Positions 11,925 to 64,000 of a stretch of 64,000 nt of DNA are shown here, piece after piece. The stretch lies in the NCBI GenBank assembly GCA_031835245.2, contig JAVKOQ020000047.1:186001-250000 (forward strand), read 5' to 3'. The first letter of the stretch is position 1, and every line of letters begins with the position of its first letter. The stretch comes from Balamuthia mandrillaris (lineage: Eukaryota). A program made the translations under genes and the position numbers. Under the pieces are notes generated by a model. It saw only the letters and a list, made by a program, of their open reading frames with translations. It was not told where the DNA came from and made no database searches.

Positions 11925-12068
11925 ACCTTCATCCCCTTCACGAATGGTTCTTTTTCTGGGTGTATATTGGATTATATATAAAAAGACTTATATTAAAAGA
12001 ATAACAGGCGAAAAGCGAAGAAGGATTTGAAACGACAGCAGAGACCTTCACGACAAGAAACAACGACG

Positions 12069-12817: not shown

Positions 12818-13437
12818 ATGCACAGAACGTCTTCTTCTCCTGGCTTACACAAAGAGCCTTGTTGGTCGCTCTCATTCATCCTCTGCGTCTGTTCTTTGGG
12901 TTTGCTGCTGACTTGTTTGTGTGACACAGCGGCTGATGAGCTTTACTTCACGGTGGACAACTTCAGCATGGCTCTCGGCCGCGACGGAGAGAGCATTTGC
13001 TTCATGGCAGGACGGGAAGAGCTCTTTGATATGGCCATCGTTTTTGACCCACCCCACCCTAACACGGTTGAAGAGCTCTTCACTTATTCTGACACTGACG
13101 AGGGTCTTTTTCTTTTTGCTTCTTGTTCTTCTTCTTCTTGTACTTGTTCTTCTTCTTCTTCTTCTTGTTCTTCTTCTTCTTCTTCTTCTTCTTCTTCTTC
13201 TTTTCTTCTTTTCTTCTTCATCGTTCTTCGTTCATCGTTCTTCTTCTTCTTTTCGTTTAGTAGTTCTGAAAACTTGGTGAACAATAAACAGGATATAACA
13301 TAGAGATATCGGTTGGGGACGATGCGTATGTTTACATAGAGCATGGCCATGAAGTCAGCAAGTCTGACACTTGGTACCGAGTTCCCATTTCGGTCTTTCG
13401 ACAGGCGTTCGCCAACTTTAAGAAGAGACAAAAATAA
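12818..13437 (+). CDS. Small spliced hypothetical protein; paralog of 12069-12582
   Basis: YFTVDNF...EELFDMA...TVEELFTYSDTDEG/YNIE...YVYIEHG...WYRVPISVFRQAFANF; intron at the same position as in the paralog. Confidence 0.7.
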
Positions 13438-13581
13438 CAAAAGACTTGCAGGCAATGGGCTGTTAGTTACTTCACATACAAAAGAACCAAATCAACTCAC
13501 CAAAGCAGGAGAGAAAGGCAGAGCGGCAGAGAGACGGGAGAGAAAGAGAGATTTTGCACAAACAAGCAAAGGAGCGTTACT

Positions 13582-16099: not shown

Positions 16100-16459
16100 C
16101 TGCTACTCTTTTTTGTCAGAAGCAGGTTCATCTTCATGACGACCTTAGTTTGCATTTTTTGTGACGACGTGGCAAGCAATCGTGTCGACACTGGTAAATA
16201 ACTTCACGACGACCTGGATAGAAAACAAAAAAGAAAGAGAAAGGAAAGAGCAGAGCGGAAAGCAGGAATGGTGGAGGGATGTTTAGGTTATGAAACACGC
16301 AGTGATTTTTCTCTTTATAGGCTTCTTGCTTTGTTGTTGTTGTTGTTGTCAGTCTTGTTGCGCTTCTTGTTGTTCGTTCTTCTTCTTTTTGTTGAGTTTG
16401 CCAAAACCACACAAGTTTTTTTTTGTCTTTGTAAATGGATTTTTTTTGTCTTTTGTGTC

Positions 16460-16611
16460 TTAGTTGTAAACCATGTACTTGGGCGTCGCCGAGAACTTGG
16501 CATAACCTTTGATGACCTTGTTGATGGAATCCAAGAAATCCTTCTCGCTTACCGTCTGCCATTAGAATGAAACATAAGTAAACAAATATGGAAGTGTGAG
16601 GGCTAAGAGAG

Positions 16612-16698
<87 letters not shown>

Positions 16699-18538: not shown

Positions 18539-18926
18539 CGTGTGTGTGAGAGTGATCTTCTGCTTTGCCGCTACTCTCTTTTCTCTCTTCTTTCACTTCT
18601 TTTCGTCTATTTGTTGTTTACCGGTGACCCCTCCGCCAAGGGACGCAAATTTTTGTTGGCAAGAATTCTTCCATGTCGACGTTTAATATGGCTTCTTTGG
18701 GTGTGCGGCATGTCGACAAAATATCTAAGGTGGTTACCGAAGTGAACCGCCTTAAATTTGAACCAATCAAATTCGTCCATTATAGAATTGGCTCTTTGAT
18801 TTGATTTTTATTATCGGACAACCCAGAGAGAAGAAAAAGCCGTTATTTTCTTCTTTATCAAACCAAAAGCTCCGACAACACTAACCACACACACACACAC
18901 ACTTGGTCTTCCCTTTAAACAACCCA

Positions 18927-20339
18927 ATGGCTCACGTACTCGCCGGCTCGAACGACTTGGAAAAGCTGGAGGACCTCTCCAGCAAGACCTACAAGGAACA
19001 GGCCATTTGGTTCCTCAATGCCTTTTGGGACAAGCACAAGGAGGAGGCGGAGCGCCTGTGGAAGTTCAAGCACCAGTGCGACGAGCTGGACCACGCCAAA
19101 AAGTCCGAGGGCTGCGCGCTGGACGAGCTGCAGGCCCACCGCTTCTTGGAGAAGTTCCAAGAGACCATGACCGTTCAGTCCATGAGAGACAAGCTGCGGT
19201 CCACAGGAGCCATCGGTGCCAAGGTCAAGCTGGTCCCCTTGATCCACATCCTCATCATCCGTTTCAACGTGGACTGGCATGAGCTGGTCAATGCTCCCCA
19301 AGGCAGCAAGGAGGAGATCGACAGAGCCCAAAAGCTGTTTGACGAGGTGCAGGCCGCTTTCCAAGAGGCCGAGGCCCGCGCAGAGGAAGCCGCTGCTGCC
19401 TTGAAGGAAGCTCAGGCAAGAGAGGCTGCTGCCAAGGCCAGAGAAGCCGACGCTCTCGCTCGCGAGGCGGATGCCAAGGCGAGAGAGGCGGAAGCCAAGG
19501 AGAGAGAGGCGGAGGCCATTGCCAGGGAGCAAGAGGCCAAGGCCAGAGAGGCGGAAGCCATTCAGAGAGAGGCCGATGCCAAGGCCAGAGAAGCCGACGC
19601 TCGTGCCAACGAGGCCAAGGCCAAGGAGCAGGAGGCCGAGGCAGTGGCCAAGGAGGAGGAGCTGAGGGCAGCCAAGGAGGAGCAGGAAGCGGCGTTGGCG
19701 GAGGTGAAGGCCCAAGAGGATGCCTACAACAACAAGACGGCAGAGCTGAAGAGAGCCAGCGAGGAAGGCGGTTTGGTCTCTCGCAACAAGGCCAAGAACG
19801 AGCTGGCCCAACACTTGCAGGAGGACCCTCTCCCCTTGCGTCGTGCCAAGATCACCCTGGAGGCTGCTGTGAAGAAGGCTGAGAAGGCTGCTCAGATCGC
19901 TGCTGATGCTCGCTCTGCTGCCGAGGCCTCCGCCAGAGAGGCCGAAGCCTCCAGAGCCGCCGCTGAGAAGTCGGCAAGAGAGGCGGAGCAAGCTCGTGCC
20001 GCTGCCCAAGCCGCCGCTCGTGAGGCCGAAAGGGCTCGCGCCAGCGCCGAGGCAGCTGCTCGCGAGGCCGAGGAAGCCAGAGCCGTCGCCGAGCAAGCCG
20101 CTCGCGAGGCCGAGCAAGCCCGCGCCGAAGCGGAGGAGGCCAGGAGACACTCGGAGAGGGCCAAGGAGGCGGCCGAGGCTGCCTTGGAGGAGGCCAAGCG
20201 GAAGCTGGAGGAGGCGGAGGCCTATCTGGAGGAGGCCAAGAAGACCCTGCCCGAGGGCCAGATCTGGTGGATGGAAAGAGAGCTGCACGAGAGGAGGGCC
20301 TACTTGCCGCAAAGCAAGGGAGGCTTCCGCCGAAACTAA
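18927..20339 (+). CDS. ABP34-like actin-bundling-protein homolog with Ala/Glu coiled-coil inserts (often annotated TolA-like), copy 1
   Basis: KEQAIWFLNAFW, EEIDRAQKLFDEV, NELAQHLQEDPLPLRRAKITLEAAV and GQIWWMEREL resemble, from memory, motifs of Dictyostelium 34-kDa actin-bundling protein. Intronless. Confidence 0.8.
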   Translation: MAHVLAGSNDLEKLEDLSSKTYKEQAIWFLNAFWDKHKEEAERLWKFKHQCDELDHAKKSEGCALDELQAHRFLEKFQETMTVQSMRDKLRSTGAIGAKVKLVPLIHILIIRFNVDWHELVNAPQGSKEEIDRAQKLFDEVQAAFQEAEARAEEAAAALKEAQAREAAAKAREADALAREADAKAREAEAKEREAEAIAREQEAKAREAEAIQREADAKAREADARANEAKAKEQEAEAVAKEEELRAAKEEQEAALAEVKAQEDAYNNKTAELKRASEEGGLVSRNKAKNELAQHLQEDPLPLRRAKITLEAAVKKAEKAAQIAADARSAAEASAREAEASRAAAEKSAREAEQARAAAQAAAREAERARASAEAAAREAEEARAVAEQAAREAEQARAEAEEARRHSERAKEAAEAALEEAKRKLEEAEAYLEEAKKTLPEGQIWWMERELHERRAYLPQSKGGFRRN

Positions 20340-20465
20340 ACTTTGCCGTTTTTTATCATTTTGTAAGAGTATTATCAAGTTTATAAACTTGTTTAACAAC
20401 AAACGAAAGCAACAAAAGAAGCAGAGTCAAGAAAGAAAGGAGCTATAAAGAAGCTCGTTTTTTTT

Positions 20466-23400
20466 TTAGTTCTCATTCTTGGTGGCCAAATAGGAGGTAA
20501 ACATGCTCTTCAGCTCTGCCAACTCCTCGCGAGCGCTCTTCAGTTCGCTCTCGAGCTCCTGCACCTTGTTGGACAATACTTCCACGGCAGCCCTATCCGC
20601 TCTCCTCAGCTCCATGGCGCTGGTGTCCGTGACCGTTCCTTCGACATAGACGTTGCCTTTGATGTAGAGGTCGCCAGTGTCGTCCATCATCAAAGAGGTC
20701 TCATGGGAGTCACAGCCGTTGTTTGTGGAGAAGGCGCCCGTGCCGATGGCGAAGATGGGGGTGCCGCTGCCCGTGAGGCTCTCAGCGGTTGCGTTGTTGC
20801 AAACGCCAAAGACGACGCCACCAACGGTATTGGTGCGGACATTAACGCCGTGGGCAAAGGAGGCAGTGGCCAAGGCCTCCACTTTACCAAGGTGGGCTGA
20901 TGATGAAAAGAAGGAAAACATTTAAAACAACAGCTAACAACCAAGAGATGCATAAAACAGAGGAGAGAAAGGGAGTCCAGAGGGGAGAAGAGGACACAAT
21001 GAGGGAACGGGAGAACGTAAAGAAGAAGGACAGCAGTACCTAGTCCAGACGCGTGAGCACCATCAGCAAACGCTTCAAGAGTACCGTTAAACAAAGCTGA
21101 ATGAGAAAAAGCATGGAGGTGTTATAAAGTTATAAACACTGCTTGTCTGAAAAAAGAAAGAGAGATACCAGCGCCCATGGCAATTGAGCCAAATCCTTGC
21201 GACATGATTGTACCACCTTCAATAGCTGATTGAGAGCAAAGAGGAGGACGTGAGTTAGGGGAAGGAGAGGGAGAGGGAGAGGGAGAGGGAGCGTTTACCT
21301 CCACCAGCAGCGAATGCGCCATCGCTCAAGGCCACAATTGCGCTTCCATTTCTGGCTGGAAACGGAAAGAAAGACCGCAAGAAGTGAATAAACAAGAAGA
21401 AAAACTAAACAGAATGTTGACAGATAACAAGGAATAATAAAACAAGTCAAAGGGATGGTACATGAGCCTATGGCAACAGATCCGTTGCCTTCAGAGTAAA
21501 TGCCGGAATTGCGAACAGCTGTTAGGAGTATTATTAGAAACACGAAGCAAGGCGTGTTGAAAAACAAAAAAAAAAATGTGAAAGTAAAAGAAATAAAAAT
21601 GCGAGAGCTGCTTGCAAAAATAATTCTAACATACCCTCGCCAGCTGCAAAGGATCCCCAGCCCAGCGATACCAACGAAGAAGACTGGTAAGCTGAACGAA
21701 TGAGGCAACACGTTAGCAAAAGAAGGCATCTTTCTCATCCAGCAGCAAGGAAGGGAGCCAGTAACGTACATTCTCCCATAGCTATAGAGCCGAAGTTCCC
21801 GGAAAGAATCTCACTGTTCTCGTCGGCTTTAAAACGTATACGAATTCGTTTGCAAGCTCAGTACAATCAAAGCAAAAACCAATAATAAAGCAAAATTGGA
21901 GGAGCTTACCTTCTCCGTAGGCTAATGCTCCGGACTCGTTGGCAAAAATCCTTGAGCCGTCAAGTGCTGCAACAAAGAATGTACAAGAGTTAAAGAATGC
22001 AATTATCAACACATAAAACGCAAATGGCAAGAAGAAAGAGCAAGAAGAATGAAGAACGAAGAAGAGAGAAGAAGATGAAGATGAAGAAGCAGGACAAAAA
22101 GAAGATGAAGGACAATAACGCCATAAGACAGCAACAACAAAGCAAGCAAAATCCAAAACACCAAACGGGCAAAAAAAATAGTAAATAGAAAAAGTATGAC
22201 GCAAAGAGCATGTACCTGAACCAATGGCAAACGAACCGTAGAAGCTGTTAGAAATAATTTCACCGACGTCCTCGGCTGGGGCGAAAGATGTTAAGGCACA
22301 AACAAAACACGCTCACAAATGAACTCCACAAACGCACCATAGCCGAAGGCAAATGTGCCGTCGCCAAAAGCACGGATGATACTGTCGTCGTCGGCTAGAA
22401 CAGAAAATCAAATGAGTTATTTTTTCTTTTTTGCGTTTATTAATCGTCTGTTGTTTGATACGTACCAGATCCAAAAGCAAAAGCACCAGTGTCCAACGAC
22501 TCAATAACCGAACGTTCATCAGCTGTAGGTAATTGCATGGCCACATTAGAAAGAGAGGGAAGTAGGGTTAGAGCAGAGAAACCAAGAGGAGAAAAGCAGG
22601 GAACGAGAAGAATGAGCATGAACACAAACCGCTGCCCATAGCGAAGCTTCCCGTGGCATTCGCCTTCAGCATTCCTCCCGCCTCAGCTAAAAGTGTTTCA
22701 GTTACAAACAAAAACTGATGAAAGCCAAAGACAAAAAATGACGAACCGAGACCCATGGCAAATGATCCAAGGCCGTTGGACTCTATTGTGCCGTTTAACG
22801 CTGCATTGCAGTACAGTTAATTATCTTTCTTGTTCATTTCTTATTGCACCTCTCATTTGTCTTACCATTGCCCAGAGCAAAGGCACCGAATTCCGAGGCT
22901 CTCACGGTCGCATTGGTTGCTTTCAAGTTGTGTGGAGGGACGAGGTAAGAGCGTGCAACTTTTTGAAAAAGAACAAAAACGAGTGGATCACTAAAAACAG
23001 CATACCGACACCCATGGCTACAGCGCCACCTGATGTTGCTGAGAGAGAGCCACCATTCTCCGCTAATAATTATGGTTCAGAATTGTTTTTGTCACAAAAG
23101 TAAAAAACACAACGTACAAGAACAAGACTAAGAAGAAGCACAATAATAACAAAACGGCCACAGCCACGACTTACCCAAACCAGCGGCAATAGAACCACGT
23201 CCATCAGACAATAGATCAGACTGACCCCCTCTAGCTGTTTTGTTGAGAGTCAGCTTCATAATGAGAAGGAGGTTTGTTCAACTGTTGTTTGTTTGTGTAC
23301 CCTGGCCCATCGCAATTGAGCCACCCGCGCGTGACCTCAAAGTGCCCCCTGAAGCTGTAAACAACAAAATAAATGAATGAACACAACGGCGGGAATAAGA

Positions 23401-25146
23401 AAAGTTACAAACTAACCAAAGCCCATTGCAAACGATCCTGGACCATCGGACACAATAACACCACCATAAGCTAAGAGAAGAGGCGGAAGGAGAGAGCGAG
23501 ATAGAGAGATGTTGAGTGTCAGCACCGGTTTTTTAGGGCAAGCACATTATATTTTGTTCTTTTTCTTCTGTTGCTTAATCTTCTGCATTTCTGTTTCCTT
23601 CTTGCAAAATGTTATAACTCACCATCACCCAAAGCGAACGCTCCAAACCCATCAGCCTCGATGGTGGAGTCATCATCAGCTATATAAATATGTAAAGCCA
23701 GCAACAAGAAAGGGAGTGAAAGATTAGAAGGAAGAAGAAGAAGAAGAAGAAGAAGAAGAAGAAGAAGAAGAACAAGAAGAAGAACAAGAAGAAGAAGAAC
23801 GCAGAAGAAGAAGAAGAACAAGAAGGTCACGAAGATTAAGAAGGAGAAGAACGCAGAAAGAAAAAACAACAAACCAAAGCCCATTGCGACACTGCCAGCC
23901 TTACGCGAGAAAATTTCGGAACTGTTGTAAGCTGAAGGTTTGAAAAGTAAAGAAGTATCGATTATTTATGTGATATTGCAAGGGTGCAACTGGTTTAAAC
24001 AACAACAGGTGAGAAGACGCACCATCACCCATGACAATCGATCCGTATGACTCGGCCACCAAGAGGGAATTCCAGTCGGCTGTGAGTCAAAGCAAGACGA
24101 GCTTAAGAATGAAGAGAAAAGAACTACAAAAAGAGGACAATAGCCCAATGGCAGAGGGATAACAAACCAATGCCAGCTACAAAAGCGCCTGCACCTCGGG
24201 CGGACACTAAAGCACCCTCAAAGGCTGCATAACAACAAAGTAGCCCAAAAGAATAACATTCAAGATGGTTAATAGGAACAACCTAGAGTGGGTTCATGGT
24301 TCCGAAGCTTTGGACAGATTGCGTACCTAGCCCAAATGCAGTGCTGCCGTCGTAAGTTGCTTCAAGTAAACTGTTATTCTTTGCTAGACGGACACAAGGT
24401 GAACAAGTGAAACAAACACAAAGAGAGAAGCAGCAAAGAACAAGACCAACATGACCGAGAACAAGAGTTAGTAATTCCAGTGAAAGAATATTGATACGAT
24501 GATCCTAACCAAAACCAGCAGCGAAAGAGCCTTGTCCCTCGGCGGCAGTGCTCAAACCAAAGGCAGCAGAATAGAGCCCGATGTTCTGTGGGTCCCATTG
24601 ATCGTTTGCCACGGAGCCTGCTCGGAAGGCAGCTCGGCTTCCATACCACAACATACGTGCTCCTGTTCATTTTTTTTGACGAAAACATAAAAAAAACGCA
24701 AACAAACGTTCAGAAAACTTTCGAAAAAAAAACAACAAATGTGATGCGTGAAGGAAAAGACACAAACGTAAAAACGCGAGAGAGAAGAGGGAAGCTGTAC
24801 CAGGGCCAGAAGCATCCCACGCTAGCCCGTCAACATCTGTGTTGTTCTCATTAACGTAGGAGCGCGCGTACACGGATCCTCCCTGCAATCTGTAGGTGCT
24901 GTTCTCAAAGACCTGCCATGCACCGCTCAACTCGAAGAGGGTCGCCAGCGATTCGCAAAGGTTCTGGTGGTCGGGGCAAACGAAGAGGGTACCGTTGGTG
25001 GACATTCGGAAGGCAACCTCACCTTCGTGCTGGATGATGAACTCGTTGGGGTTCTCCTCCACACAATGAGGGGCGCCGATATGAGCGGCCGTAAAACCCA
25101 ACAAACAGATCACCAACAAACCTAAAGATGTACTCTTCGTCATCAT
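20466..25146 (-). CDS. Secreted YadA-head/tail-fibre-like beta-roll repeat protein with C-terminal coiled coil, ~25 exons
   Basis: Signal peptide; GPGARMLWYGSRAAFRAGSVANDQWDPQNIGLYSAAFG; 22 micro-exons each encoding about A-x(9-11)-G-[SA]-[FIV]-A-x-G; final exon PIFAIGTG...DDTGDLYIKGNV then coiled coil. Confidence 0.82.
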
Positions 25147-26319: not shown

Positions 26320-26547
26320 TTTGCTTTTTCTCTTTTTTTTTTTTCAAACCATTCAGGACGACATGAATCTAAAAATCGAGACGACCCGAGTAGTCTTTTG
26401 CCAAAATTTTTAAGAGGGTTCATTTTAAGGTGATTGCAATTTCGCACAATCGATCTACCCCTCAGCCCCGTTTTTGGTTTTTTTTTCGTTCTCGTCAAAC
26501 TATTGCCAACATAACAACAACACCAGCTACACTACAGCAACCCCCCC

Positions 26548-27801
26548 ATGGCACACACGTTGAACGGCTCGAACGACTTGGAGAAGCTGGAGGACCTCTC
26601 CAGCAAGACCTACAAGGAACAGGCCGTGTGGTTCCTCAATGCCTTCTGGGAGGACTTTGCCAAAGATGAGGCGGAGCGCCTGTGGAAGTTCAAGCACCAG
26701 TGCGACGAGCTGGACCACGCCAAGAAGGCCCAGGGCTGCGCTCTGGACGAGCTGCAGGCCCACCGCTTCCTCGAAAAATTCAACGAGACCATGACCGTCC
26801 AGTCCATGAGAGACAAGCTGCGGTCCACAGGAGCCATCGGTGCCAAGGTCAAGCTGGTCCCCTTGATCCACATCCTCATCATCCGCTTCAACGTGGACTG
26901 GCACACCCTGGTCAACGCCCCCCAAGGTAGCAAGGAGGAGATCGCCAAGGCTCAACAGCTGTTGGACGAAGTGCAGGCCGCCTTCCAGGAGGCCGAGGCC
27001 CGTGCAGAGGAGGCCGCTGCTGCCTTGAAGGAAGCTCAGGCAAGAGAAGCTGACGCCAAAGCCCGAGAGGCGGACGCCAAGGCCAGAGAAGCCGAGGCCA
27101 AGGCCGCTGAGGCCGATGCCAAGGCCAGAGAAGCCGAAGCTCACTCCCGCGCGGAGGAGGCCAAAGCCACCGAGGCTGAGGCAGTGGCCAAGGAGGAGGA
27201 GCTGAGGGCAGCCAAGGAGGAGCAGGAAGCGGCGTTGGCGGAGGTGAAGGCTCAAGAGGATGCCTACAACAACAAGACGGCAGAGCTGAAGAGAGCCAGC
27301 GAGGAAGGCGGTTTGGTCTCTCGCAACAAGGCCAAGAACGAGCTGGCCCAACACTTGCAGGAGGACCCTCTTCCCTTGCGTCGTGCCAAGATCACTCTGG
27401 AGGCTGCTGTGAAGAAGGCTGAGAAGGCTGCTCAGATCGCTGCTGATGCTCGCTCTGCTGCTGAGGAGTCAGCCAGGCAGGCCGAGGCTGCTGCCCAACA
27501 AGCCAGCAGCGCTAGAGCAGCTGCCGAACAAGCCGCCCGACAGGCAGAGCAAGCCAGAGCCCAGGCCGAGCAGGCCAGAGCGCAAGCAGAGCAGGCCAGG
27601 CAACACTCGGAGAGGGCCAAGGAAGCAGCTGAGGAAGCGTTGGAGGAGGCCAAGAGGAAAGTGGAGGAGGCAGAGGCGTACTTGCAGGAGGTGAAGGCTC
27701 GTCTGCCGCAGGGAGCCATCTGGTGGATGGAAAGGGAGTTGCACGAGGCGAGGGCGTATTTGCCCAAGAGCAAGGGTGGTTACAACAAGAACGAGAAGTA
27801 A
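26548..27801 (+). CDS. ABP34-like coiled-coil protein, copy 2
   Basis: 417 aa intronless ORF with the same motifs as copy 1 (QAVWFLNAFW, QGAIWWMEREL). Confidence 0.8.
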   Translation: MAHTLNGSNDLEKLEDLSSKTYKEQAVWFLNAFWEDFAKDEAERLWKFKHQCDELDHAKKAQGCALDELQAHRFLEKFNETMTVQSMRDKLRSTGAIGAKVKLVPLIHILIIRFNVDWHTLVNAPQGSKEEIAKAQQLLDEVQAAFQEAEARAEEAAAALKEAQAREADAKAREADAKAREAEAKAAEADAKAREAEAHSRAEEAKATEAEAVAKEEELRAAKEEQEAALAEVKAQEDAYNNKTAELKRASEEGGLVSRNKAKNELAQHLQEDPLPLRRAKITLEAAVKKAEKAAQIAADARSAAEESARQAEAAAQQASSARAAAEQAARQAEQARAQAEQARAQAEQARQHSERAKEAAEEALEEAKRKVEEAEAYLQEVKARLPQGAIWWMERELHEARAYLPKSKGGYNKNEK

Positions 27802-28034: not shown

Positions 28035-28257
28035 CTCTCTCTCTTTCTCGCCTACCTTCCACTAGTCCTCACCGCTGTCCTCTCCTTGTGTGCACCCATA
28101 TGAAAATGAACCCTCAATGGAATTCTTTTATTGCGGTGCTTCTCCGCTGCCCCCTTTTTGTTTTTTTTTGCCGCATTCACACTCGGCACTACGCAAAACG
28201 TAACACCCGCACAACAGCAACGCGCTCGCTACCGGCAAAAACGACAACAAAAACACA

Positions 28258-29469
28258 ATGGCTCAAGTGCTGAACGGCTCGAACGACTTGGAGAAGCTGG
28301 AGGACCTCTCCAGCAAGACCTACAAGGAACAGGCCGTGTGGTTCCTCAATGCCTTTTGGGAGGACTTTGCCAAGGAGGAGGCGGAGCGCCTGTGGAAGTT
28401 CAAGCACCAGTGCGACGAGCTGGACCACGCCAAGAAGGCCCAGGGTTGCGCTCTGGACGAGCTGCAGGCCCACCGCTTCCTCGAAAAATTCAACGAGACC
28501 ATGACCGTCCAGTCCATGAGAGACAAGCTGCGGTCCACAGGAGCCATCGGTGCCAAGGTCAAGCTGGTCCCCTTGATCCACATTCTCATCATCCGCTTCA
28601 ACGTGGACTGGCACACCCTGGTCAATGCTCCCCAAGGCAGCAAGGAGGAGATCGCCAAGGCTCAACAGCTGTTGGACGAAGTGCAGGCCGCCTTCCAGGA
28701 GTCTGAGGCCAGAGCCGCTGAGGCCGCCGCTGCCTTGAAGGAGGCTAAAGCAAGAGAGGCGGACGCCAAGGCCAGGGAAGCCGAGGCCAAGGCCGCTGAG
28801 GCCGACGCCAAGGCCAGAGAAGCGGAAGCCCACTCCCGCGCGGAGGAGGCCAAAGCCACCGAGGCTGAGGCAGTGGCCAAGGAGGAGGAGCTGAGAGCGG
28901 CCAAGGAGGAGCAGGAAGCGGCGTTGGCGGAGGTGAAGGCTCAAGAGGATGCCTACAACAACAAGACGGCAGAGCTGAAGAGAGCCAGCGAGGAAGGCGG
29001 TTTGGTCTCTCGCAACAAGGCCAAGAACGAGCTGGCCCAACACTTGCAGGAGGACCCTCTCCCCTTGCGTCGTGCCAAGATCACCCTGGAGGCTGCTGTG
29101 AAGAAGGCTGAGAAGGCTGCTCAGATCGCTGCTGATGCTCGCTCTGCTGCCGAGGAGTCAGCCAGGCAGGCCGAGGCTGCTGCCCAACAAGCTAGCAGCG
29201 CCCGCGCCGCCGCGGAGCAAGCCGCCAGGCAAGCCGAGCAAGCCAGAGCGCAAGCAGAGCAGGCCAGGCAACACTCGGAGAGGGCCAAGGAAGCAGCTGA
29301 GGAAGCGTTGGAGGAGGCCAAGAGGAAAGTGGAGGAGGCAGAGGCGTACTTGCAGGAAGTGAAGGCTCGTCTGCCGCAGGGAGCCATCTGGTGGATGGAA
29401 AGGGAGTTGCATGAGGCGAGGGCGTATTTGCCCAAGAGCAAGGGTGGTTACAACAAGAACGAGAAGTAA
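28258..29469 (+). CDS. ABP34-like coiled-coil protein, copy 3 (tandem with copy 2)
   Basis: 403 aa intronless ORF, nearly identical to copy 2 but two heptads shorter. Confidence 0.8.
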   Translation: MAQVLNGSNDLEKLEDLSSKTYKEQAVWFLNAFWEDFAKEEAERLWKFKHQCDELDHAKKAQGCALDELQAHRFLEKFNETMTVQSMRDKLRSTGAIGAKVKLVPLIHILIIRFNVDWHTLVNAPQGSKEEIAKAQQLLDEVQAAFQESEARAAEAAAALKEAKAREADAKAREAEAKAAEADAKAREAEAHSRAEEAKATEAEAVAKEEELRAAKEEQEAALAEVKAQEDAYNNKTAELKRASEEGGLVSRNKAKNELAQHLQEDPLPLRRAKITLEAAVKKAEKAAQIAADARSAAEESARQAEAAAQQASSARAAAEQAARQAEQARAQAEQARQHSERAKEAAEEALEEAKRKVEEAEAYLQEVKARLPQGAIWWMERELHEARAYLPKSKGGYNKNEK

Positions 29470-50201: not shown

Positions 50202-51740
50202 TTACTTGTCGACGCCTCCCTTGGCCTTGGGCAAATACTTCCTTCGTTCCTGCAACTCCCTGTCCAACCACCAGATGGCACCCTGGGGCAGGGTGTTCTT
50301 GGCTTCCTCCAAGTAGGCTTCTGCCTCTTCAAGCTTCTTCCTGGCCTCCTCCAAGGCAGCCTCAGCAGCTTCCTTGGCCCTCTCAGAGTTCTCTCTGGCT
50401 CGCTCGGCGTCAGCCCTGGCCTGCTCGGCCTCTGCTCTGGCTTGCTCTGCCTCTCTGGCAGCCTGCTCAGCAGCAGCTCTGGCCTGCTCTGCTTCTCTGG
50501 CAGCCTGTTCGGCAACAGCTCTGGCTTCCTCGGCCTCGCGAGCAGCAGCTTGGGCGGCGGCGCGAGCCTTTTCAGCCTCACGAGCAGCAGCTTGAGCAGC
50601 GGCACGAGCTTGCTCCGCCTCTCTTGCCGACTTCTCGGCAGCAGCTCTGGATGCCTCAGCTTCTCTAGCAGACGCTTCGGCAGCGGCTCTGGCCTCAGCA
50701 GCAGCCTGAGCAGCCCTTTCAGCCTTCTTCACAGCAGCCTCCAGGGTGATCTTGGCACGACGCAAGGGGAGAGGGTCCTCCTGCAAGTGTTGGGCCAGCT
50801 CGTTCTTGGCCTTGTTGCGAGAGACCAAACCACCTTCCTCGCTGGCTCTCTTCAGCTCTGCCGTCTTGTTGTTGTAGGCATCCTCCTGGGCCTTCACCTC
50901 TGCCAACGCTGCTTCCTGCTCCTCCTTGGCCGCCCTCAGCTCCTCCTCCTTGGCCACTGCCTCGGCCTCCTGCTCCTTGGCCTTGGCCTCGTTGGCACGA
51001 GCGTCGGCTTCTCTGGCCTTGGCATCGGCCTCTCTCTGAATGGCTTCCGCCTCTCTGGCCTTGGCCTCCTGCTCCCTGGCAATGGCCTCCGCCTCTCTCT
51101 CCTTGGCTTCCGCCTCCCTCGCCTTGGCATCCGCCTCGCGAGCGAGAGCGTCAGCCTCCCTTTGCTTAGCATCGGCCTCGGCGGCCAAAGCTTCAGCTTC
51201 AGCGGCCTTGGCGTCAGCTTCTCTGGCTTTGGCGTCGGCCTCTCTCGCTTGAGCTTCCTTCAAGGCAGCAGCGGCCTCCTCTGCGCGGGCCTCGGACTCC
51301 TGGAAAGCGGCCTGCACCTCATCCAACAACCTTTGGGCCTTATCAATCTCCTCCTTGCTGCCTTGGGGAGCGTTGACCAGCTCATGCCAGTCCACATTGA
51401 AGCGGATGATGAGGATGTGGATCAAGGGGACCAGCTTGACCTTGGCACCGATGGCTCCCGTCGAGCGCAATTTCTCTCTCATGGTTTGAACGGTCATGGT
51501 CTCTTGGAACTTCTCCAAGAAGCGGTGGGCCTGCAGCTCGTCCAGCGCATTTCCTTCGGACTTTTTGCCGTGGTCCAACTCGTCGCACTGGTGCTTGTAC
51601 TGCCACAGGCGCTCCGCGTTATCCTTTCCGTGTTCCTCCCAGAAGGAGTTCAGGAACCAAATGACCTGTTCCTTGTAGGTCTTGCTGGAGAGGTCCTCCA
51701 GCTTTTCCAAGTCGTTCGAACCTTGCAAAACCAGTGTCAT
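50202..51740 (-). CDS. ABP34-like coiled-coil protein, copy 4 (longest)
   Basis: 512 aa intronless ORF with QVIWFLNSFW and QGAIWWLDREL. Confidence 0.8.
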   Translation of the reverse strand: MTLVLQGSNDLEKLEDLSSKTYKEQVIWFLNSFWEEHGKDNAERLWQYKHQCDELDHGKKSEGNALDELQAHRFLEKFQETMTVQTMREKLRSTGAIGAKVKLVPLIHILIIRFNVDWHELVNAPQGSKEEIDKAQRLLDEVQAAFQESEARAEEAAAALKEAQAREADAKAREADAKAAEAEALAAEADAKQREADALAREADAKAREAEAKEREAEAIAREQEAKAREAEAIQREADAKAREADARANEAKAKEQEAEAVAKEEELRAAKEEQEAALAEVKAQEDAYNNKTAELKRASEEGGLVSRNKAKNELAQHLQEDPLPLRRAKITLEAAVKKAERAAQAAAEARAAAEASAREAEASRAAAEKSAREAEQARAAAQAAAREAEKARAAAQAAAREAEEARAVAEQAAREAEQARAAAEQAAREAEQARAEAEQARADAERARENSERAKEAAEAALEEARKKLEEAEAYLEEAKNTLPQGAIWWLDRELQERRKYLPKAKGGVDK

Positions 51741-52197
51741 TCTACAGGAGTTTGAGCGGAAGTAGCTAGCACGAGTGTCGGTGTGTGAAGTTGTTTTAAA
51801 ATTTGAACAATAATAAAAATAATAAGATTTGATTTTAAAAATTGGCGAATAAGTTGGCAGGAAGGACGCCGCCTCTAACGTAGTGGAGAAGAAAGCGAGA
51901 AAATGGACGGTTATTATTCTTTCGGGAGGTGAGCTCGGTTACCGTTACCTTTGAAGCTTGCTACACCGAGCGCAACGCTCTTGTTGTCCATCCAGCTAAG
52001 CAGGACCGACCGCCAAGATAGGTTGGACAGGGCCGGTGTCCGGCCATTTGATCTCATATATCCTAGCTTATATTGCCAGAGACCCCTCAAGCCCGAACTT
52101 TTGGCTTTTTGGCCGTCACTCTCTCCCCTTCTATTTTAGCGCAAATCATACAAGACTCAAGAAACGCACAGAAGAGAAGCGGGCTACGAAGTTAGAG

Positions 52198-53535
52198 ATG
52201 GCACAAGTGTTAACGGGAGCGAACGATTTGGAGAAGTTGGAGCAGCTGGCCACCAAGACCTACAAGGAACAGGCCGTGTGGTTCCTCAATGCCTTCTGGG
52301 AGGACTTTGCCAAGGAGGAGGCGGAGAGGTTGTGGAAGTTCAAGCACCAGTGCGACGAGCTGGACCACGCCAAGAAGGCCCAGGGCTGCGCTCTGGACGA
52401 GCTGCAGGCTCACCGCTTCTTGGAGAAGTTCCAAGAGACCATGACCGTCCAGTCCATGAGAGACAAGCTGCGGTCCACAGGAGCCATCGGTGCCAAGGTC
52501 AAGCTGGTCCCCTTGATCCACATCCTCATCATCCGCTTCACCGTGGACTGGCACACCCTGGTCAATGCCCCCCAAGGCAGCAAGGAGGAGATCGCCAAGG
52601 CTCAACAGCTGTTGGACGAAGTGCAGGCCGCCTTCCAGGAGGCCGAGGCCCGCGCAGAGGAGGCTGCTGCTGCCTTGAAGGAAGCTCAGGCCCGGGAGGC
52701 TGATGCCAAAGCCAGAGAAGCTGATGCCAAGGCCAGGGAAGCCGAGGCCAAGGCCGCTGAGGCCGACGCCAAAGCACGAGAAGCCGAAGCTCACTCTCGT
52801 GCTGAAGAAGCTGCGGCTAGAGCGGAGGAGGCTAAGGGGAGGGAAGCCGAAGCCAAGGAACGAGAAGCTGAGGCGGCAGCCAGGGAGGAGGAGCTGAGAG
52901 CGGCCAAGGAGGAGCAGGAAGCAGCGTTGGCGGAGGTGAAGGCCCAAGAGGATGCCTACAACAACAAGACGGCAGAGCTGAAGAGAGCCAGCGAGGAAGG
53001 CGGTTTGGTCTCTCGCAACAAGGCCAAGAACGAGCTGGCCCAGCACTTGCAGGAGGACCCTCTCCCCTTGCGTCGTGCCAAGATCACCCTGGAGGCGGCT
53101 GTGAAGAAGGCCGAAAGGGCTGCTCAGGCTGCTGCTGAGGCCAGAGCCGCTGCCGAAGAGTCTGCTAGACAAGCCGCTCAAGCCAGAGCGAACGCCGAAG
53201 AGTCAGCCAGGCAGGCTGCCGCTGCTGCAGAGGAGGCTAGTAGGGCCCGCGCCGCCGCGGAACAAGCCGCCCGACAGGCAGAGCAAGCCAGAGCCCAGGC
53301 AGAGCAGGCCAGAGCGCAAGCAGAGCAGGCCAGGCAAAACTCAGAGAGGGCCAAGGAAGCGGCTGAGGAAGCGTTAGAGGAGGCCAAGAGGAAAGTGGAG
53401 GAAGCGGAGGCGTACTTGGAAGAAGCAAAGGCTCGTCTGCCACAGGGAGCCATCTGGTGGATGGAAAGGGAGTTGCATGAGGCGAGGGCGTATTTGCCCA
53501 AGAGCAAGGGTGGTTACAACAAAAACGAGAAGTAA
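52198..53535 (+). CDS. ABP34-like coiled-coil protein, copy 5 (head-to-head with copy 4)
   Basis: Starts MAQVLTGANDLEKLE; same core and C-terminus as copies 2 and 3. Confidence 0.8.
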   Translation: MAQVLTGANDLEKLEQLATKTYKEQAVWFLNAFWEDFAKEEAERLWKFKHQCDELDHAKKAQGCALDELQAHRFLEKFQETMTVQSMRDKLRSTGAIGAKVKLVPLIHILIIRFTVDWHTLVNAPQGSKEEIAKAQQLLDEVQAAFQEAEARAEEAAAALKEAQAREADAKAREADAKAREAEAKAAEADAKAREAEAHSRAEEAAARAEEAKGREAEAKEREAEAAAREEELRAAKEEQEAALAEVKAQEDAYNNKTAELKRASEEGGLVSRNKAKNELAQHLQEDPLPLRRAKITLEAAVKKAERAAQAAAEARAAAEESARQAAQARANAEESARQAAAAAEEASRARAAAEQAARQAEQARAQAEQARAQAEQARQNSERAKEAAEEALEEAKRKVEEAEAYLEEAKARLPQGAIWWMERELHEARAYLPKSKGGYNKNEK

Positions 53536-58930: not shown

Positions 58931-59833
58931 ATAAAAGCATCATCATCACCATTGTCCTCTTTCATGGTGTGTGCCTTCTTTGCTTGCTTTTTCGCAGCTA
59001 AGTTCTTTTATTACCTCCAGCTGGCCTTCTCCAGTAGCAATGGCACAAGGCATTTTGTCCAGGGAGTAGTAATTAAGAAGGGACCACTGCAGTAACAGTT
59101 CTTTTCAGCTCCTTTTTCTTCTGCTGTTTTGCAATCCTTGTTTGCCGGACAAGTATAAGGTATATCATAAACATAGATACATCCAAAGGAAGAACAACAC
59201 TTGAAGTATTTGCTATAACAAACAGTTTGGTATTTCATGAAGTTGTAACAAAGTTATTGAGGTGCGAAAATGCGGAACCAAGGGAACCTGCTTGGTTCCC
59301 TGGTTCCATAGCAAAAATTTCAGACTTAGAAAAAATTTCAACGTTCTCTAAGCCAAAATGATTGAAAAAAGGGAAAATTGATGTTTATTAATAAAAAAAA
59401 GGAATACCATGCTTTTGTTTGAAAAAATAAAAAAGGTTCTTGTAGAACTCAACATGCTCTATCCAATGAGCTTATTTACAAAGAGTAAAAATATTTTATG
59501 ACTGAGTAATTAATTTTATACATGATTTTGTATTTTAAAAATAATAGAAAATATTTGTGAAACTGACTGACAAATGGATAGATAAATAGATAAATAAATG
59601 AATAAATGAATGTTTAAAAAGTGTTTCATTAATATTGAATGAATGAATAAACAAGGGAAAAAAAATGTTCCACAACATAAAAAAACAAAACCTTGCAAAA
59701 ACAAACAACAATTAAATCAAAACAACAACTTAAAAACAAAATAAAAATTCTTCATTCTTTCCTAAACTATCATTGTTGTTGTTGCATAAATATAGCTCTA
59801 CTATCATTATTATAAAAATGATGATGATAATAA

Positions 59834-61034
59834 TTAAAATAATAATGGATCCTTTAAATTATTCCAATACTTTATAATCAAGCGTTGAGGTAATTCTTTT
59901 TCTTGTTTCCACATAGGATGATTTGCTCCTTTCCATTTGACTTGATATAAAACAACTTTGCTATCCAACTTATCATCATCACCAATTATTTGTTCCCATT
60001 TATGATCCAATATTTCTTCTACTACATCCATTATCTCTGTTGTCATTATTGCTTCATTTTCATTTTCATCCAACAATAAGTTTGTCTCAGAATATTTATC
60101 ATCATCATCATCATCATTATCATTCATAAATGTAAGTCTTCTAAGTCTTTTATATCTTCTTTTTGAAACTTGATCTGCTACTATTGATTGAAATAAAAAT
60201 TTATATTAATTAAAAATAAAGAAAATAACTAGAAAAAGAAAGTACTGTTTTACCACTCTCCCATAATACCTATCCCTATCTCTCCTTGTATATATATTTC
60301 TTTCTTTCATTCTATTAAAGGTCTTTTTCCCTACGCCCATCGAGTTGGTGTCCGTTAGGCTATTCCCCTACCGGCCTTATCACAGTACCTTTGTCTTCTT
60401 CATTTTCTTCAAATTGCTGTTGTAACTCTTGAAGTACATCAGATTCTTCTTGTGTTTCTTTTTGTTTTTCATCATCATCATCATCATCATCAATCTCACT
60501 ACTATCTTCCAAAAATAATGAAACTATATCATCATAAGTAGATTGCCATTCTTCTTCTTCTTCTTCTTCTTCTTCTTCTTCTTTTTCTCCATCATCCTTA
60601 ATATCATCTTTTATTTCTTTTTCTTTTTCTTCTTCGTCTTCTTCTTCTTCATGATTACACCACCAATTTGGATCTTTTATCTTCAAGTTTTGTTGAATAA
60701 CAAGTCGCATACGATTCACAATTTTTCTACCTAACTGATGATCCTTTTGAGCTAGCTGATACTTTGGTATAATGTGTATTATGAGTATCAAAACTATGAA
60801 GCATAGCTCGAGCTAACTTGATTCTAACTTCTTCTGGAACTGAAAGATCTCTAGCAGTCAGTACTTGCAATAATGCATCGACTTTTACCAGGAGTAATGC
60901 CAAAAACTCCAGTTCTTTCTTGTAGTTTTATGGACATACGATGTCCAAGTTTAGTATGTGGTTGACCAGAAGAATTACAAAAAAAGAAGTTGGTTTGTGG
61001 ATTCAGCTGTGATCTGATATATAACTCATAATCA
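59834..61034 (-). pseudogene. 5'-truncated, frameshifted tyrosine-recombinase C-terminus + acidic linker + chromodomain gene (mobile-element remnant)
   Basis: DYELYIRSQLNPQTNFFFCNSSGQP..ITPGKSRCIIAST / ARDL..KLARAMLHSFDTHNTHYT / KYQLAQK..., one intron, then VEEILDHKW..YQVKWKG...W..EKEL..LIIKYW. Strongly AT-rich. Confidence 0.7.
60246..60384. mobile_element. 139-bp solo-LTR-like insertion with 4-bp target-site duplication
   Basis: Begins TGT, ends ACA, flanked by GTAC at 60242-60245 and 60385-60388; internal TATATA and ATTAAA. Confidence 0.65.
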
Positions 61035-61048
61035 GGTTAGGGTTAGGG
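61035..61048 (+). repeat. Short telomere-type repeat GGTTAGGGTTAGGG
   Basis: Seen directly, at the breakpoint of the truncated recombinase remnant. Confidence 0.75.
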
Positions 61049-61180
61049 GCGGGTACTCAGAACCTACGGCATTCAACTCCCCATGGTCCATTCTATAAAA
61101 CTCTAAGTCTATAAGTCTAACGGATAAAGTGGGTCAAAGTAGCAATTTTTTCAATTTTCGTATAGGAATACCTATATAAT

Positions 61181-62324
61181 CTAACAAGATATAATCATAA
61201 TATCATCATCATCATCATCATCATCATTCTCCTCTGTCTCTTCCTCTTCATCCAAGATGGATATAACTGTAGTGGTAGTAAAAGTAGGAGATGATGATGG
61301 GGAGGAAGTGTTGTCATTATCATCATCATCATCCGATTTGTCAAAGTCCTCATCATGGGCCACCAAGTATTTGGCCTTCAAAGCGTCCAGATTGTTGGAG
61401 AATTCTGTGAGGAGATTGCGCCATTTATCATAGCAATCATTGTTGGTTCGACGTTGGGTAGGCAAGTGTTTGGCAATCTCCAACCAAGACCATCCATCAC
61501 GCAAGCGCCAAGTGACAACTCTACGGATTTCTGGTGCCTGCCAAGCGATCCGTTGTCGATGGCCATTCTTCTGATATTTGAGTCGATTGGATAACAATTG
61601 TTGTCGCTGAAGCGCTCTGCGAACTCGTTGTCGTCGTGGTGTTTGTTTTTTTGAGTCAGGACTCTTGTCATCATCATCATCAGCATCGAGAGAAGCAAGG
61701 GAGGAGGATGATTGCTCTTGACGAGGGGTGAGGAATGCTTTGTGAATGGGTGATCCGTTGACCAACTTGGGAAGTACAGGAGCTACAAACTCATCCACCA
61801 GCTCATTCAAGCCACTGAAAAAGCTTTGCAGAATGCCAGAGATGTGTTGACGGCACAGCTGGCGATGAATATTGGGCCAACGAAGAGGAGATTTGTTTTT
61901 GGCCTCATAGGTGGCTGCAGCTTCAGCTAGCACATCCTTATCAAACTCATCTGGATGATTTTCTACCCAAGCGGTACAACATTCAAGCCACAAGGAGCGA
62001 TAAAATCGTATTTGTTGATCTTTGGTTGGCAAATCTGTTCGTTTCATGAACCACCTAAAGAAGCAGTGTAAAAGAAGAAGAAGAAAGAAAGAGAAAGTGA
62101 GAGAAAGAAAGAGGAAAAGAAAGAAAAAGGGAAAAGAGACAAAAAACAAAGTGTGAGTGAATGTTAAAAGAAGAACAAATGAACTAAGACCAATTATAAC
62201 AATTATTGTTTAGACTATGAATGTTGCTGCTGTCACAATAAACCTGTGCGTTCTAGCTGAGCGCTAGGTCTAAGGGTGCATTTTTGAATGCAAGCAAGCA
62301 AACAAACAAGCTAAAAACTGACTG

Positions 62325-62365
<41 letters not shown>

Positions 62366-63497
62366 TGGTGATGGTGGTGGATACTATGCAAACAAAACAA
62401 ACAAACAAACACAAACAAACAAACCGTTGGCGAACAGCATGAATAAAACTCTGATAGTTGGTATCTGCAGACCAGTTGGATTGTTGCAAAGCATCTGAGG
62501 ATAGATTGTGAAATGCTTCTTTGGTAACTAGCTCTGGAGCAATAACTGTATGTATGCAAGGGAGTGAGAATGAAAAGAACCAAAAAGAGAGCAAGTCAGT
62601 CCATCAAGTGATAGTGGTGGTGGTGGTGGTGATGGTGGTGGTGGTGGTGGTTTATTGACGCTGGTCAGGCAGCCAGCCCAGCCAAAGAAAAAACAAAAGA
62701 AAAAACAAAACTCAGACGAGCAGTAACGAACCACAATGTCGAGGAGGATGATAATCAGCAGTGGTAGTTGCAACAGAGGATGAAGATAATGAAGAAGAAG
62801 AAGAAGAAGAAGAATGAGGATGAGTGGTGGTAACATTGCTGACCAAGCGATTGGCCACAATAGCACGTTTTAATGTATCCTTGACGTAGACTTGCTGGGA
62901 TCTACCACGAGGTACCCAACCTGCGATAAGGGCAGTAGTATCCAGTACATTGTTCTGACTGTGACCTTCCTGCAGTCCCTCCAAGATCAAGGCAGTGCAA
63001 AGGAAGCCAGCACGCAAGGAGTGAAAGGAAAACAATCCTTCAGGATAACCAGCCCGAACAGCCCGATCTTGCAACTTGGCATTTAAAGTATCGCGTGACC
63101 ATCCCCATAATGATGTTTGTTTTTGTTTGTCTGTCAAGCGCCAGTTGTGAAACTCGCGCAAATCCAAACCATGCTTGCATAACAGATGCTTGTTTAACCA
63201 GTAAATAAAATCTCCAAGACAAATGCTTGGTGTTGATGTTGTTGATGTGGTGGCAGCAGGGGTGGTGACAGCAGCGGTCCTAAGTGGTGATGATGGTGAT
63301 GGTGATGGTGAAGAAGATGATCCTCGTGATGATGATGATGATGGTAGTGGTGGTGGTGGTGTTAAATAACCTTCAAATGTAACGATATGATTCCAATGAT
63401 TTGGTATTCCTTTAGTGACTTGTTGGCACAATGAAAGGAAATAAAGAGGAGGAGCAGAAAATGTATCCTCTTGGTGATGGCAGCTGATGTTGTCATT

Positions 63498-63551
<54 letters not shown>

Positions 63552-64000
63552 GAAAGAGGAGGATGAAAGTTTAGGTCGAAATGCCACAATATCACCCAAA
63601 CGAATGTTTGCAGCTGTAATGGCTCTGGCACCAGTACAAACACTGTGTAACCAACAACTGGCTTCAGCAGCTTTGCTCACCAGTCCATCTGGAGTGGATG
63701 CGATAATATGTAAGACATCATCTAACAAATATGCGTCTTTGCACAATTGTTTGCTAGAACAGGAGGGTTTGGCTCTTTTGCAATGTCGAATGGCCTGTTT
63801 GACTTGATCTTTGATGGCATCCATTTGGTTTTTTAGCAACAACAAGTAAGCATGGTCTGAGGTTGTTGTCAATGCTGTAGTGCGTCCTGTCGCTCCTGTT
63901 GTTGCTGCTCGAGTGACACCATCACCAAGAAGGGTTCTGGATAAAGGAGAAGGTGGGAAAGAAGTGGTACATGATGATGATGCTGGAGTTGAAGAGATCA
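61181..64000 (-). CDS. Tyrosine recombinase fused by splicing to a C-terminal telobox-type Myb domain (5' end outside window)
   Basis: Catalytic set TGAR / VTKG / HSLR / AGW / QVY. Exons >64000-62732, 62545-62425 and 62054-61181 join in phase (1, then 2). Myb RIAWQAPE...WLEIAKHL..RTNNDCYDKWRNL. Confidence 0.82.

What the first reader, a model, noticed from the sequence alone, without database searches (positions are those of the whole stretch)
61035..64000. Tyrosine recombinase-telobox Myb fusion whose element boundary is a TTAGGG tract
Seen: the ORFs listed separately at 62712-63872 and 61181-62149 splice into one protein through a 121-nt middle exon, with matching phases (CATTGTG|gttcgt...catacag|TTATT; CAACG|gtttgt...ctttag|GTGG). 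The product has an intact R-K-HxxR-W-Y recombinase set and a single Myb repeat ending RTNNDCYDKWRNL. About 130 bp past the stop lies GGTTAGGGTTAGGG, exactly where a different gene is cut off. Known: the LKDKWRN-type helix is the telobox of TRF/TRB telomere-binding Myb proteins, and the Crypton recombinases I know carry other accessory domains (GCR1_C, DUF3504). Inference: a eukaryotic YR transposon that uses its own telobox Myb to recognise TTAGGG, either as target site or as its own terminal binding site. I do not recall this architecture being described, but could not search for it.
Basis: partly seen in the sequence, partly recalled or inferred. Interest (0 to 1): 0.92.

Follow-up and report, generated by a model that had tools for sequence, protein, structure and literature searches.

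The report
Telomere-tipped recombinase–Myb transposon family
This is one copy of a multicopy repeat family, found in amoebae, oxymonads and ciliate-code hosts, that encodes a Cre-like recombinase fused to a Myb domain and carries a short telomere-type repeat at one end; it is likely a DNA transposon whose Myb is predicted to read that repeat, an arrangement we did not find described.

Summary
The finding is real and wider than reported. The exons join into one open tyrosine recombinase (YR)–Myb frame. Relatives encode the fusion in single ORFs (559 clusters; Balamuthia, Monocercomonoides, Blattamonas, metagenomes). The six catalytic residues are near-invariant and the predicted fold is Cre-like.

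The TTAGGG tract is the element's end. Contig depth jumps there and 13 contigs carry other flanks. A 43%-identical subfamily reads through the same end into a cut Ras domain. Of 23 metagenome loci, 17 (6 of 10 groups) carry telomere tracts (null 0.005): TTAGGG in standard-code loci, TTGGGG joining head-to-tail 3.2-kb units without reverse transcriptase in ciliate-code loci.

Corrections: this copy's helix 3 fails the telobox consensus, which only 19 of 79 family Mybs meet. The second splice acceptor is uncertain, splicing is not shown by RNA, and Myb–TTAGGG binding is untested.

Best reading: a Crypton-like DNA transposon lineage with a telomere-type attachment end. Our literature searches found no description of it.

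The parts
62732..63998 (-). Exon with the end of the core-binding region and the whole catalytic YR domain (R-K-HxxR-W-Y); open at its 5' end, and the first ~58 codons may be intron
   Evidence: near-invariant residues in 108 relatives; Cre-like fold of paralog P0014
62425..62545 (-). 121-nt middle exon
   Evidence: GT-AG boundaries and frame; matched by paralog proteins in tblastn
62244..62269 (-). Alternative 26-nt micro-exon, used with acceptor 62034 instead of 62054
   Evidence: keeps the frame open; read by NCBI models P0001, P0004, P0005, P0045; not tested by RNA
61181..62054 (-). Last exon: helical middle domain, Myb repeat, acidic tail, stop
61409..61561 (-). Single Myb repeat; keeps the N-terminal arm Arg and helix-3 Asp and Arg, lacks the telobox Val and Lys
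61035..61048 (+). Telomere-type tract forming the element end; G-rich strand reads from the flank into the element
   Evidence: depth step, 13 contigs with other flanks, and a contig whose alignment stops at 61034; same end read through in P0015 and P0016
61041..61064 (+). End motif GGTT, 16-nt spacer, AACC (inverted half-site), a candidate attachment site
   Evidence: similar spacing in L001, L003, L004, L020 and some ciliate-code units; absent in L007, L022 and other ciliate-code units; noticed post hoc
59837..61034 (-). Interrupted AT-rich (31% GC) repeated gene at the insertion site, ending in a weak chromodomain; broken into several frames
   Evidence: Pfam Chromo E 0.01, below cut-off; GC; many contigs laid on it; YR-like motifs seen by eye only, not confirmed

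Best explanation
The window ends in the 3' part of one copy of a multicopy repeat family that encodes an intact Cre-like tyrosine recombinase fused to a C-terminal Myb repeat and carries a short telomere-type tract at one end; it is likely a Crypton-like DNA transposon whose Myb is predicted to bind that tract. Shown: the fusion in relatives, the catalytic residues, multicopy status, varied flanks that start at the tract, no reverse transcriptase in the complete relative units examined, and a tract type that differs between standard-code and ciliate-code loci. Inferred: the recombinase excises the element as a circle whose junction holds the tract; the Myb holds the recombinase on the tract next to the crossover; the circle integrates into AT-rich DNA with little homology (host genes in Balamuthia), or beside existing telomere-type tracts (head-to-tail arrays, telomere-adjacent copies). 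In the Balamuthia/L007 branch the gene is inverted relative to this end.
For: Fusion: 81 of 150 listed relatives carry a detectable Myb; 26 of 27 full-length members hit Pfam Myb and 5 of 27 hit Phage_integrase; L011's single ORF passes both cut-offs. Enzyme: R222, K259, H349, R352, W384, Y394 are at least 90% conserved in 108 sequences; model pLDDT 87; best Foldseek hit Cre, E 2e-6; VIA Z 15.5, rmsd 3.5, 286 aligned. Mobility and boundary: summed contig depth 300-351 just left of the tract versus 7,764-24,936 inside in X1, and 28-30 versus 356-1,609 in X3 (not a copy number); 13 X1 contigs have loose, disagreeing letters before 61034; X3 record 11 aligns up to 61034 and goes on with other letters. 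Model P0015, 43% identical in the YR, reads through the same end straight into a Ras domain matched only from profile position 75 of 162. Family: 17 of 23 loci hold two or more tandem telomere hexamers against a null mean of 0.005; by blastn that is 6 of 10 groups. L020 has the tract at one end only, with related host repeats on both sides. L003 is a 3,412-nt circular or tandem unit with an imperfect tract and no room for an RT ORF. L007, the only other locus with a short tract downstream in the window's orientation, falls in the Balamuthia branch (support 0.907 with P0030 and P0034). Myb: profile consensus RTNVDCKDRWR fits VxxKDxxR (PMC6175992); arm Arg 73 of 79, Asp 64 of 79; TRF1 379-430 superposes on model 588-638 (rmsd 1.8). 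Balamuthia telomeres are TTAGGG (bioRxiv 10.1101/2025.02.25.640156, passages).
Against: The full telobox consensus is met by only 19 of 79 family Mybs and KDxxR by 31 of 79. This copy has Tyr for the Lys that is critical in TRF1/2 (PMC8867601, passages), yet keeps the tract. The nine ciliate-code Mybs examined lack VxxKD. Sequence scores do not separate telobox from c-Myb or GT-1. Tract length differs (3-5 repeats) among 99.6-99.9% identical units, which a fixed element-borne site does not predict. All 10 right ends seen in the ciliate-code arrays are followed by a tract, and L002 ends in about 19 repeats 1.2 kb past the ORF; both fit a target origin. L005, L006, L018, L021 and L023 show no tandem tract, and L003 only an imperfect one (several contigs may not reach the end). 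The other end of the Balamuthia element was not seen. Circles, splicing and DNA binding are not shown.
Confidence: 0.55

Rival explanations
1. Telomere-targeting integrase: the tract belongs to the target. The element recombines into (TTAGGG)n or (TTGGGG)n at telomere boundaries or interstitial tracts, as TATE and telomere-specific nimaviruses do, and the Myb selects the target.
For: The tract differs by host type; repeat number varies among near-identical units; ciliate-code units form head-to-tail arrays in shuffled order joined at the tract; L004/L002 read unique flank, 3 repeats, element, then about 19 repeats at the contig end. Precedents: PMC6681497 and PMC10871703 (passages).
Against: Balamuthia flanks are coding sequence cut mid-domain; the X3 contig that stops aligning at 61034 does not continue into the tract; L020 has no tract on its other side; tracts facing unique flanks are short (at most 7 repeats).
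Confidence: 0.22
2. The tract is the element end, but the Myb does not read it: the YR core or host telomere proteins bind it, and the Myb binds another subterminal site.
For: This subfamily lost two telobox positions yet keeps the tract; 48 of 79 family Mybs lack KDxxR; no score preference for TRF Mybs.
Against: The family profile consensus matches the telobox and the arm Arg is kept in 73 of 79; helix 3 differs in the one host group whose tract is TTGGGG (one lineage, so not independent support).
Confidence: 0.12
3. Telomerase adds the repeats to the cut host end during or before integration, so the tract is a healing scar and not a fixed element sequence.
For: The G strand reads 5' to 3' from the flank, the orientation of telomerase addition; the number varies (about 1-3 joints, 2-7); the repeat follows host type. 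Telomerase action at breaks is recalled knowledge, from no call.
Against: The tract sits at the same element end in the cases where both sides were seen; the innermost repeat is in register with a 16-nt spacer and inverted half-site in several groups; L003's junction holds degenerate repeats.
Confidence: 0.09
4. An ordinary host gene, two separate genes, or a DIRS-type retroelement, with a chance TTAGGG nearby.
For: Pfam finds no YR in the window's own exon; the 5' part of this copy is outside the window; splicing is not shown.
Against: Single-ORF fusions in relatives, 17 models in one Balamuthia cluster, the depth step and varied flanks, no RT in complete units, and tracts far above the null.
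Confidence: 0.02

Closest known systems
Cryptons (CryptonF, S, A, I; PMC3212892, first two parts of the text read)
   Same: Eukaryotic DNA elements with a YR and no RT, proposed to move through a circle; CryptonF also fuses a C-terminal DNA-binding domain (GCR1_C) to the YR.
   Different: The accessory domain is Myb; no GCR1_C or DUF3504 among the families listed for 27 members. The end is a telomere-type tract, not a described 4-6 bp direct repeat. Hosts are an amoebozoan, oxymonads and ciliate-code organisms, none of which are in that paper's table.
TATE/VIPER YR retrotransposons of kinetoplastids (PMC6681497, passages)
   Same: YR elements; TATE forms tandem clusters at a fixed position within telomeric hexamers.
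   Different: TATE is a retroelement with RT and RNase H and split direct repeats. Complete units here are 3.2-3.4 kb with one ORF and no RT. The word Myb does not occur in that paper.
Telomere-specific YRs of endogenous nimaviruses (PMC10871703, passages)
   Same: YR-driven association with the host telomere repeat, with concatemers or episomes joined at the repeat.
   Different: Large viruses whose YRs carry C2H2 and SAM-like domains, with no Myb mentioned. No relative of this family was found in viral contigs.
TBE transposons of Oxytricha (PMC4724952, passages)
   Same: DNA transposons whose ends carry the host telomere repeat.
   Different: DDE Tc1/mariner transposase with terminal inverted repeats that begin with the C-rich strand and an ANT target duplication. 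Here the enzyme is a YR and the G-rich strand points into the element.
TRF/TRB telobox Myb proteins (PMC6175992, PMC8867601, passages)
   Same: Single C-terminal Myb repeat; the family consensus matches VxxKDxxR.
   Different: No TRFH hit in the Pfam scans; fused to a recombinase; most members, this copy among them, depart from the consensus.
Cre recombinase; Tn916/Tn1549 integrases
   Same: Core-binding plus catalytic domain fold, Cre closest. Integration into AT-rich targets without homology, as in Tn916, is recalled and used only as an analogy.
   Different: 11-14% identity to Cre; eukaryotic, intron-bearing in Balamuthia, with an added helical domain and Myb; no relative found in prokaryotic genomes.

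Membership tests
Tyrosine recombinase superfamily | Catalytic R-K-H-R-(H/W)-Y set | tested here: met
   present in the window; at least 90% conserved in 108 relatives
Tyrosine recombinase superfamily | Core-binding plus catalytic domain fold | tested here: met
   model of paralog P0014 matches Cre: Foldseek E 2e-6, VIA Z 15.5 over 286 residues
Crypton (order: YR-only DNA transposons) | YR without reverse transcriptase, multicopy | tested here: met
   complete relative units L003 and the ciliate-code 3.2-kb units have no RT; multicopy. The 5' part of the window's copy is off-window.
Crypton (order: YR-only DNA transposons) | 4-6 bp terminal direct repeats (F, S) or none (A, I) | tested here: inconclusive
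   second Balamuthia end not available; ciliate-code units are flanked by direct telomere tracts; L020 right junction located only to within about 20 nt
CryptonF | C-terminal GCR1_C domain | tested here: not met
   C-terminal domain is Myb in 26 of 27; GCR1_C not among the 9 families listed at E<=0.05
CryptonA / CryptonI | No C-terminal domain; DUF3504-type YR (A) | tested here: not met
   C-terminal Myb present; DUF3504 not among the families listed
Any named Crypton subgroup | YR nests within the subgroup in a tree | not testable with these tools
   no reference Crypton sequences were on hand; the tree holds family members only
DIRS/Ngaro/VIPER/TATE retrotransposons | RT and RNase H (and gag) in the element | tested here: not met
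   no RT family in 6 other long ORFs of two ciliate-code loci; L003 and L002 have no other sense ORF over about 100 aa. Tested on relatives, not on the window's copy.
Starship captains | DUF3435 YR leading a giant cargo element | tested here: not met
   DUF3435 not among the families listed; complete units are 3.2-3.4 kb
Telobox (TRF/TRB) Myb | Helix-3 consensus VxxKDxxR, this copy | tested here: not met
   N-D-C-Y-D-K-W-R in the window and in P0001, P0004, P0005
Telobox (TRF/TRB) Myb | Helix-3 consensus VxxKDxxR, family | tested here: inconclusive
   met by the other two Balamuthia subfamilies and the profile consensus, but by only 19 of 79 domains
Telobox (TRF/TRB) Myb | Sequence-specific binding to double-stranded telomere repeats | not testable with these tools
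   needs a binding assay
TBE (telomere-bearing elements) | DDE transposase with telomere-repeat inverted ends | tested here: not met
   the enzyme is a YR; where both sides were seen, tracts are direct or on one side only

The most novel reading that the evidence does not exclude
A pan-protist superfamily of tyrosine-recombinase transposons has captured a telomere-binding Myb and uses the host's own telomere repeat as its attachment site, re-tuning helix 3 as the host repeat changes (TTAGGG to TTGGGG). It builds arrays at telomere boundaries and, when it lands inside chromosomes, leaves correctly oriented telomere seeds that could promote chromosome fragmentation in hosts with many small chromosomes.
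Probability: 0.3. Interest if true: 0.93.

Novelty: new variant of a known kind. Interest (0 to 1): 0.82.

Why it matters
Eukaryotic YR transposons are rare, and their ends are hard to define. This family has a recognisable end that follows the host type, and a candidate reader for it in the same protein, so end recognition and target choice become directly testable. It spans at least Amoebozoa, Metamonada and a ciliate-code lineage, yet nearly all named members are annotated as hypothetical or given only a generic domain name. It links transposition to telomere biology by a route unlike TATE, TBE or nimaviruses, and compact single-ORF members would be natural models of a eukaryotic site-directed recombinase. 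It also explains chimeric gene models in the Balamuthia annotation.

Tried and rejected
RNA: no RNA holder listed. Two RNA runs of the same species label (3 and 5 in 100 of each read) laid 34 and 32 reads on 59000-62090, nearly all on the solo-LTR-like repeat, none on the last exon, and about 4 on the element end in X20. There was no calibration against a host gene, so this is no evidence on expression. Intron 1 and the donor of intron 2 lay outside the stretch laid. No whole genome is held, so copies and the second end could not be collected.

Five joints from the element end to other places of the AT-rich region (sides 26-48 nt; 3 more joints not shown) may be repeat artefacts and were used only as a hint of repeat-number variation.

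The first fold with 8 sequences failed (pLDDT 43). Pfam, PHROGs and PDB sequence searches missed the YR in the window's exon. No relatives in viral contigs or prokaryotic genomes; viral fold hits are generic integrases at 10-16% identity. The Atlas hit to an ALOG plus Phage_integrase cluster (0.91, 146 features) is a lead only.

Identity of the interrupted gene: no support for a YR; the Atlas was unreachable. Earlier scan findings: none. An argument from NCBI locus-tag spacing that copies sit at contig ends was considered and dropped as too weak.

Literature searches for the architecture gave 0 papers, or listings that showed no such description. The library lacks most subscription papers and Repbase, and bioRxiv supplements were not seen.

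Full report
Observation. Joining 63998-62732, 62545-62425 and 62054-61181 (minus strand) gives one open frame of 753 residues with R, K, HxxR, W and Y in place and a Myb repeat at 61409-61561. The gene's 5' part lies beyond the window. A second model with a 26-nt micro-exon (62244-62269) and acceptor 62034 is also open and is the one read by four near-identical NCBI models; RNA did not decide between them. The tract at 61035-61048 is the only tandem TTAGGG in the window.

The protein. The first search gave five Balamuthia mandrillaris proteins, two with YR region and Myb in one model, and one cluster has 17 members. A profile of eight sequences found 559 clusters at E<=0.001, of which 150 were listed. 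Of 20 looked up, named ones were Monocercomonoides exilis (4), Blattamonas nauphoetae (1) and Balamuthia (1); the rest were unnamed or hypothetical metagenome proteins, several on 2.5-3.8 kb contigs. In 108 aligned sequences the six catalytic residues are at least 90% conserved. The AlphaFold model of paralog P0014 (pLDDT 87) matches Cre best. A helical domain of unknown role and the Myb follow. 81 of 150 listed proteins carry a detectable Myb. The fusion is therefore a family property and does not rest on splice prediction.

The Myb. The telobox consensus is VxxKDxxR (PMC6175992, passages), and K, D and R are the critical contacts in TRF1/2 (PMC8867601, passages). Two Balamuthia subfamilies match it and the window's subfamily does not. 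Across 79 complete domains: V 22, K 35, R at that place 15, Y 13, D 64, final R 55, arm R 73; full consensus 19. PDB searches rank c-Myb, GT-1 and TRF domains alike. It is telobox-like at the family consensus, but not shown to be one.

The boundary in Balamuthia. In laid DNA contigs summed depth rises more than tenfold across the tract in both runs; the tool warns this is no copy number. Thirteen X1 contigs carry disagreeing letters before 61034. X3 record 11 aligns from 60666 to exactly 61034 and continues with letters that do not align, as an empty site or uninterrupted paralog would. Independently, NCBI model P0015, from a subfamily 43% identical in the YR, runs from the Myb through the translated end motif directly into a Ras domain that lacks its first 74 profile positions, and P0016 ends in the same motif; the window's minus strand reads the same motif at the tract. 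So the end is shared between distant subfamilies while flanks differ, and at least two flanks are genes cut in mid-course. Balamuthia telomeres are TTAGGG (bioRxiv 10.1101/2025.02.25.640156, passages, which also say its TEs await annotation).

The boundary in relatives. Of 23 metagenome loci, 17 hold two or more tandem telomere hexamers; the resampling null averages 0.005. They fall into 10 groups by blastn: six have a tract, L003 an imperfect one, and L005, L006 and L023 none. L001, L004 and L020 have about three TTAGGG upstream of the ORF, and L007 has three CCCTAA downstream as in the window; L007 groups with the Balamuthia subfamilies (support 0.907 for the clade with P0030 and P0034; 49 rows, none left out), which suggests one inversion of the gene relative to this end. 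L008-L019 read through only with TAA/TAG as Gln and consist of about 3.2-kb single-ORF units joined head to tail at (TTGGGG)n in shuffled order. Near-identical units start with 3-5 repeats after different AT-rich flanks, their Myb lacks VxxKD, and no RT was found in six other long ORFs. That these hosts are ciliates with TTGGGG telomeres is inferred from the code and from recall. L003 is a 3,412-nt circular or tandem unit. L004/L002 read unique flank, three repeats, element, then about 19 repeats at the contig end; the element's right limit there is not defined. L020 sits between related host repeats with a tract on one side only, though its ORF looks truncated. Several ends, the window's included, share GGTT, a spacer of about 16 nt and AAC(C/T), the inverted layout typical of YR sites; this was noticed post hoc and is absent from L007, L022 and some ciliate-code units.

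Mechanism. Shown: intact residues, fusion, multicopy dispersal, tract at one end, tract type by host group, no RT in complete relatives. Inferred: excision to a circle as proposed for Cryptons (PMC3212892), the tract as part of the junction, the Myb as its reader, and integration either into AT-rich DNA or beside an existing tract (0.55). The target-derived model (0.22) explains arrays and variable repeat number better but not the one-sided tracts in genes; the two are not exclusive. A Myb that binds elsewhere (0.12) and telomerase-added scars (0.09) remain open.

Comparison. It works like a Crypton but meets the defining domain of none of the subgroups tested, and placement in a tree could not be tested. 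It lacks the RT of TATE and DIRS, the DDE enzyme and inverted ends of TBE, and the DUF3435 of Starships. Searches for the architecture gave no paper, or listings that showed no such description. Papers seen: PMC3212892 (first two of seven parts); keyword passages of PMC6681497, PMC10871703, PMC6175992, PMC8867601, PMC4724952, PMC9156397, PMC3537659, PMC13465315, PMC3627910, PMC12130899 and the bioRxiv preprint; the others as listings only. Repbase and most subscription papers were not searchable, so an existing name cannot be excluded.

Verdict. A real, apparently undescribed, widespread YR DNA transposon lineage with a telomere-type end: a new variant of a known kind, interest 0.82. The link between the Myb and the tract is the untested step.

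Noticed in passing
window 60246-60384: 139-bp solo-LTR-like repeat (TG...CA, GTAC on both sides) at very high depth in DNA contigs and the only part with steady RNA reads; it sits at an apparent splice donor of the interrupted gene.
   Followed up: partly
window 59141-61034: AT-rich (26-31% GC) repeated region with a broken minus-strand gene ending in a weak chromodomain. Two frames show motifs that by eye resemble a YR C-terminus, so it may be a second, degenerate recombinase element; no tool confirmed this.
   Followed up: partly
window 59275-59308: Near-perfect hairpin close to the left edge of the AT-rich region, a possible element terminus (sequence printed).
   Followed up: no
window 18885-20336, 26515-27798, 28204-29466, 50205-51938, 52000-53532: Five paralogous ORFs with an F-actin-bundling C-terminal domain, in both orientations.
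   Followed up: no
P0015, P0022: NCBI models named Rap1 GTPase-activating protein and DEAD-box helicase are chimeras of this element and the downstream part of a host gene.
   Followed up: partly
P0006, P0028, P0177: N-terminal Cys motif resembling a treble-clef zinc finger in several members, upstream of the part in the window; seen by eye, with only weak hits.
   Followed up: no
L022 6757-6906 and 7356-8561: Cluster of TTAGGG repeats just past a 1,591-residue divergent member, followed by a DDE transposase (Pfam DDE_Tnp_1_7).
   Followed up: no
L007 3332-3671: The tract-bearing end lies about 250 nt from a tRNA-Met gene.
   Followed up: no
P0036 and other members: Some members carry two Myb repeats.
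   Followed up: no
model of P0014, residues 442-557: Conserved helical middle domain with only middling (Z about 7) matches to RNase III-like bundles; role unknown.
   Followed up: no
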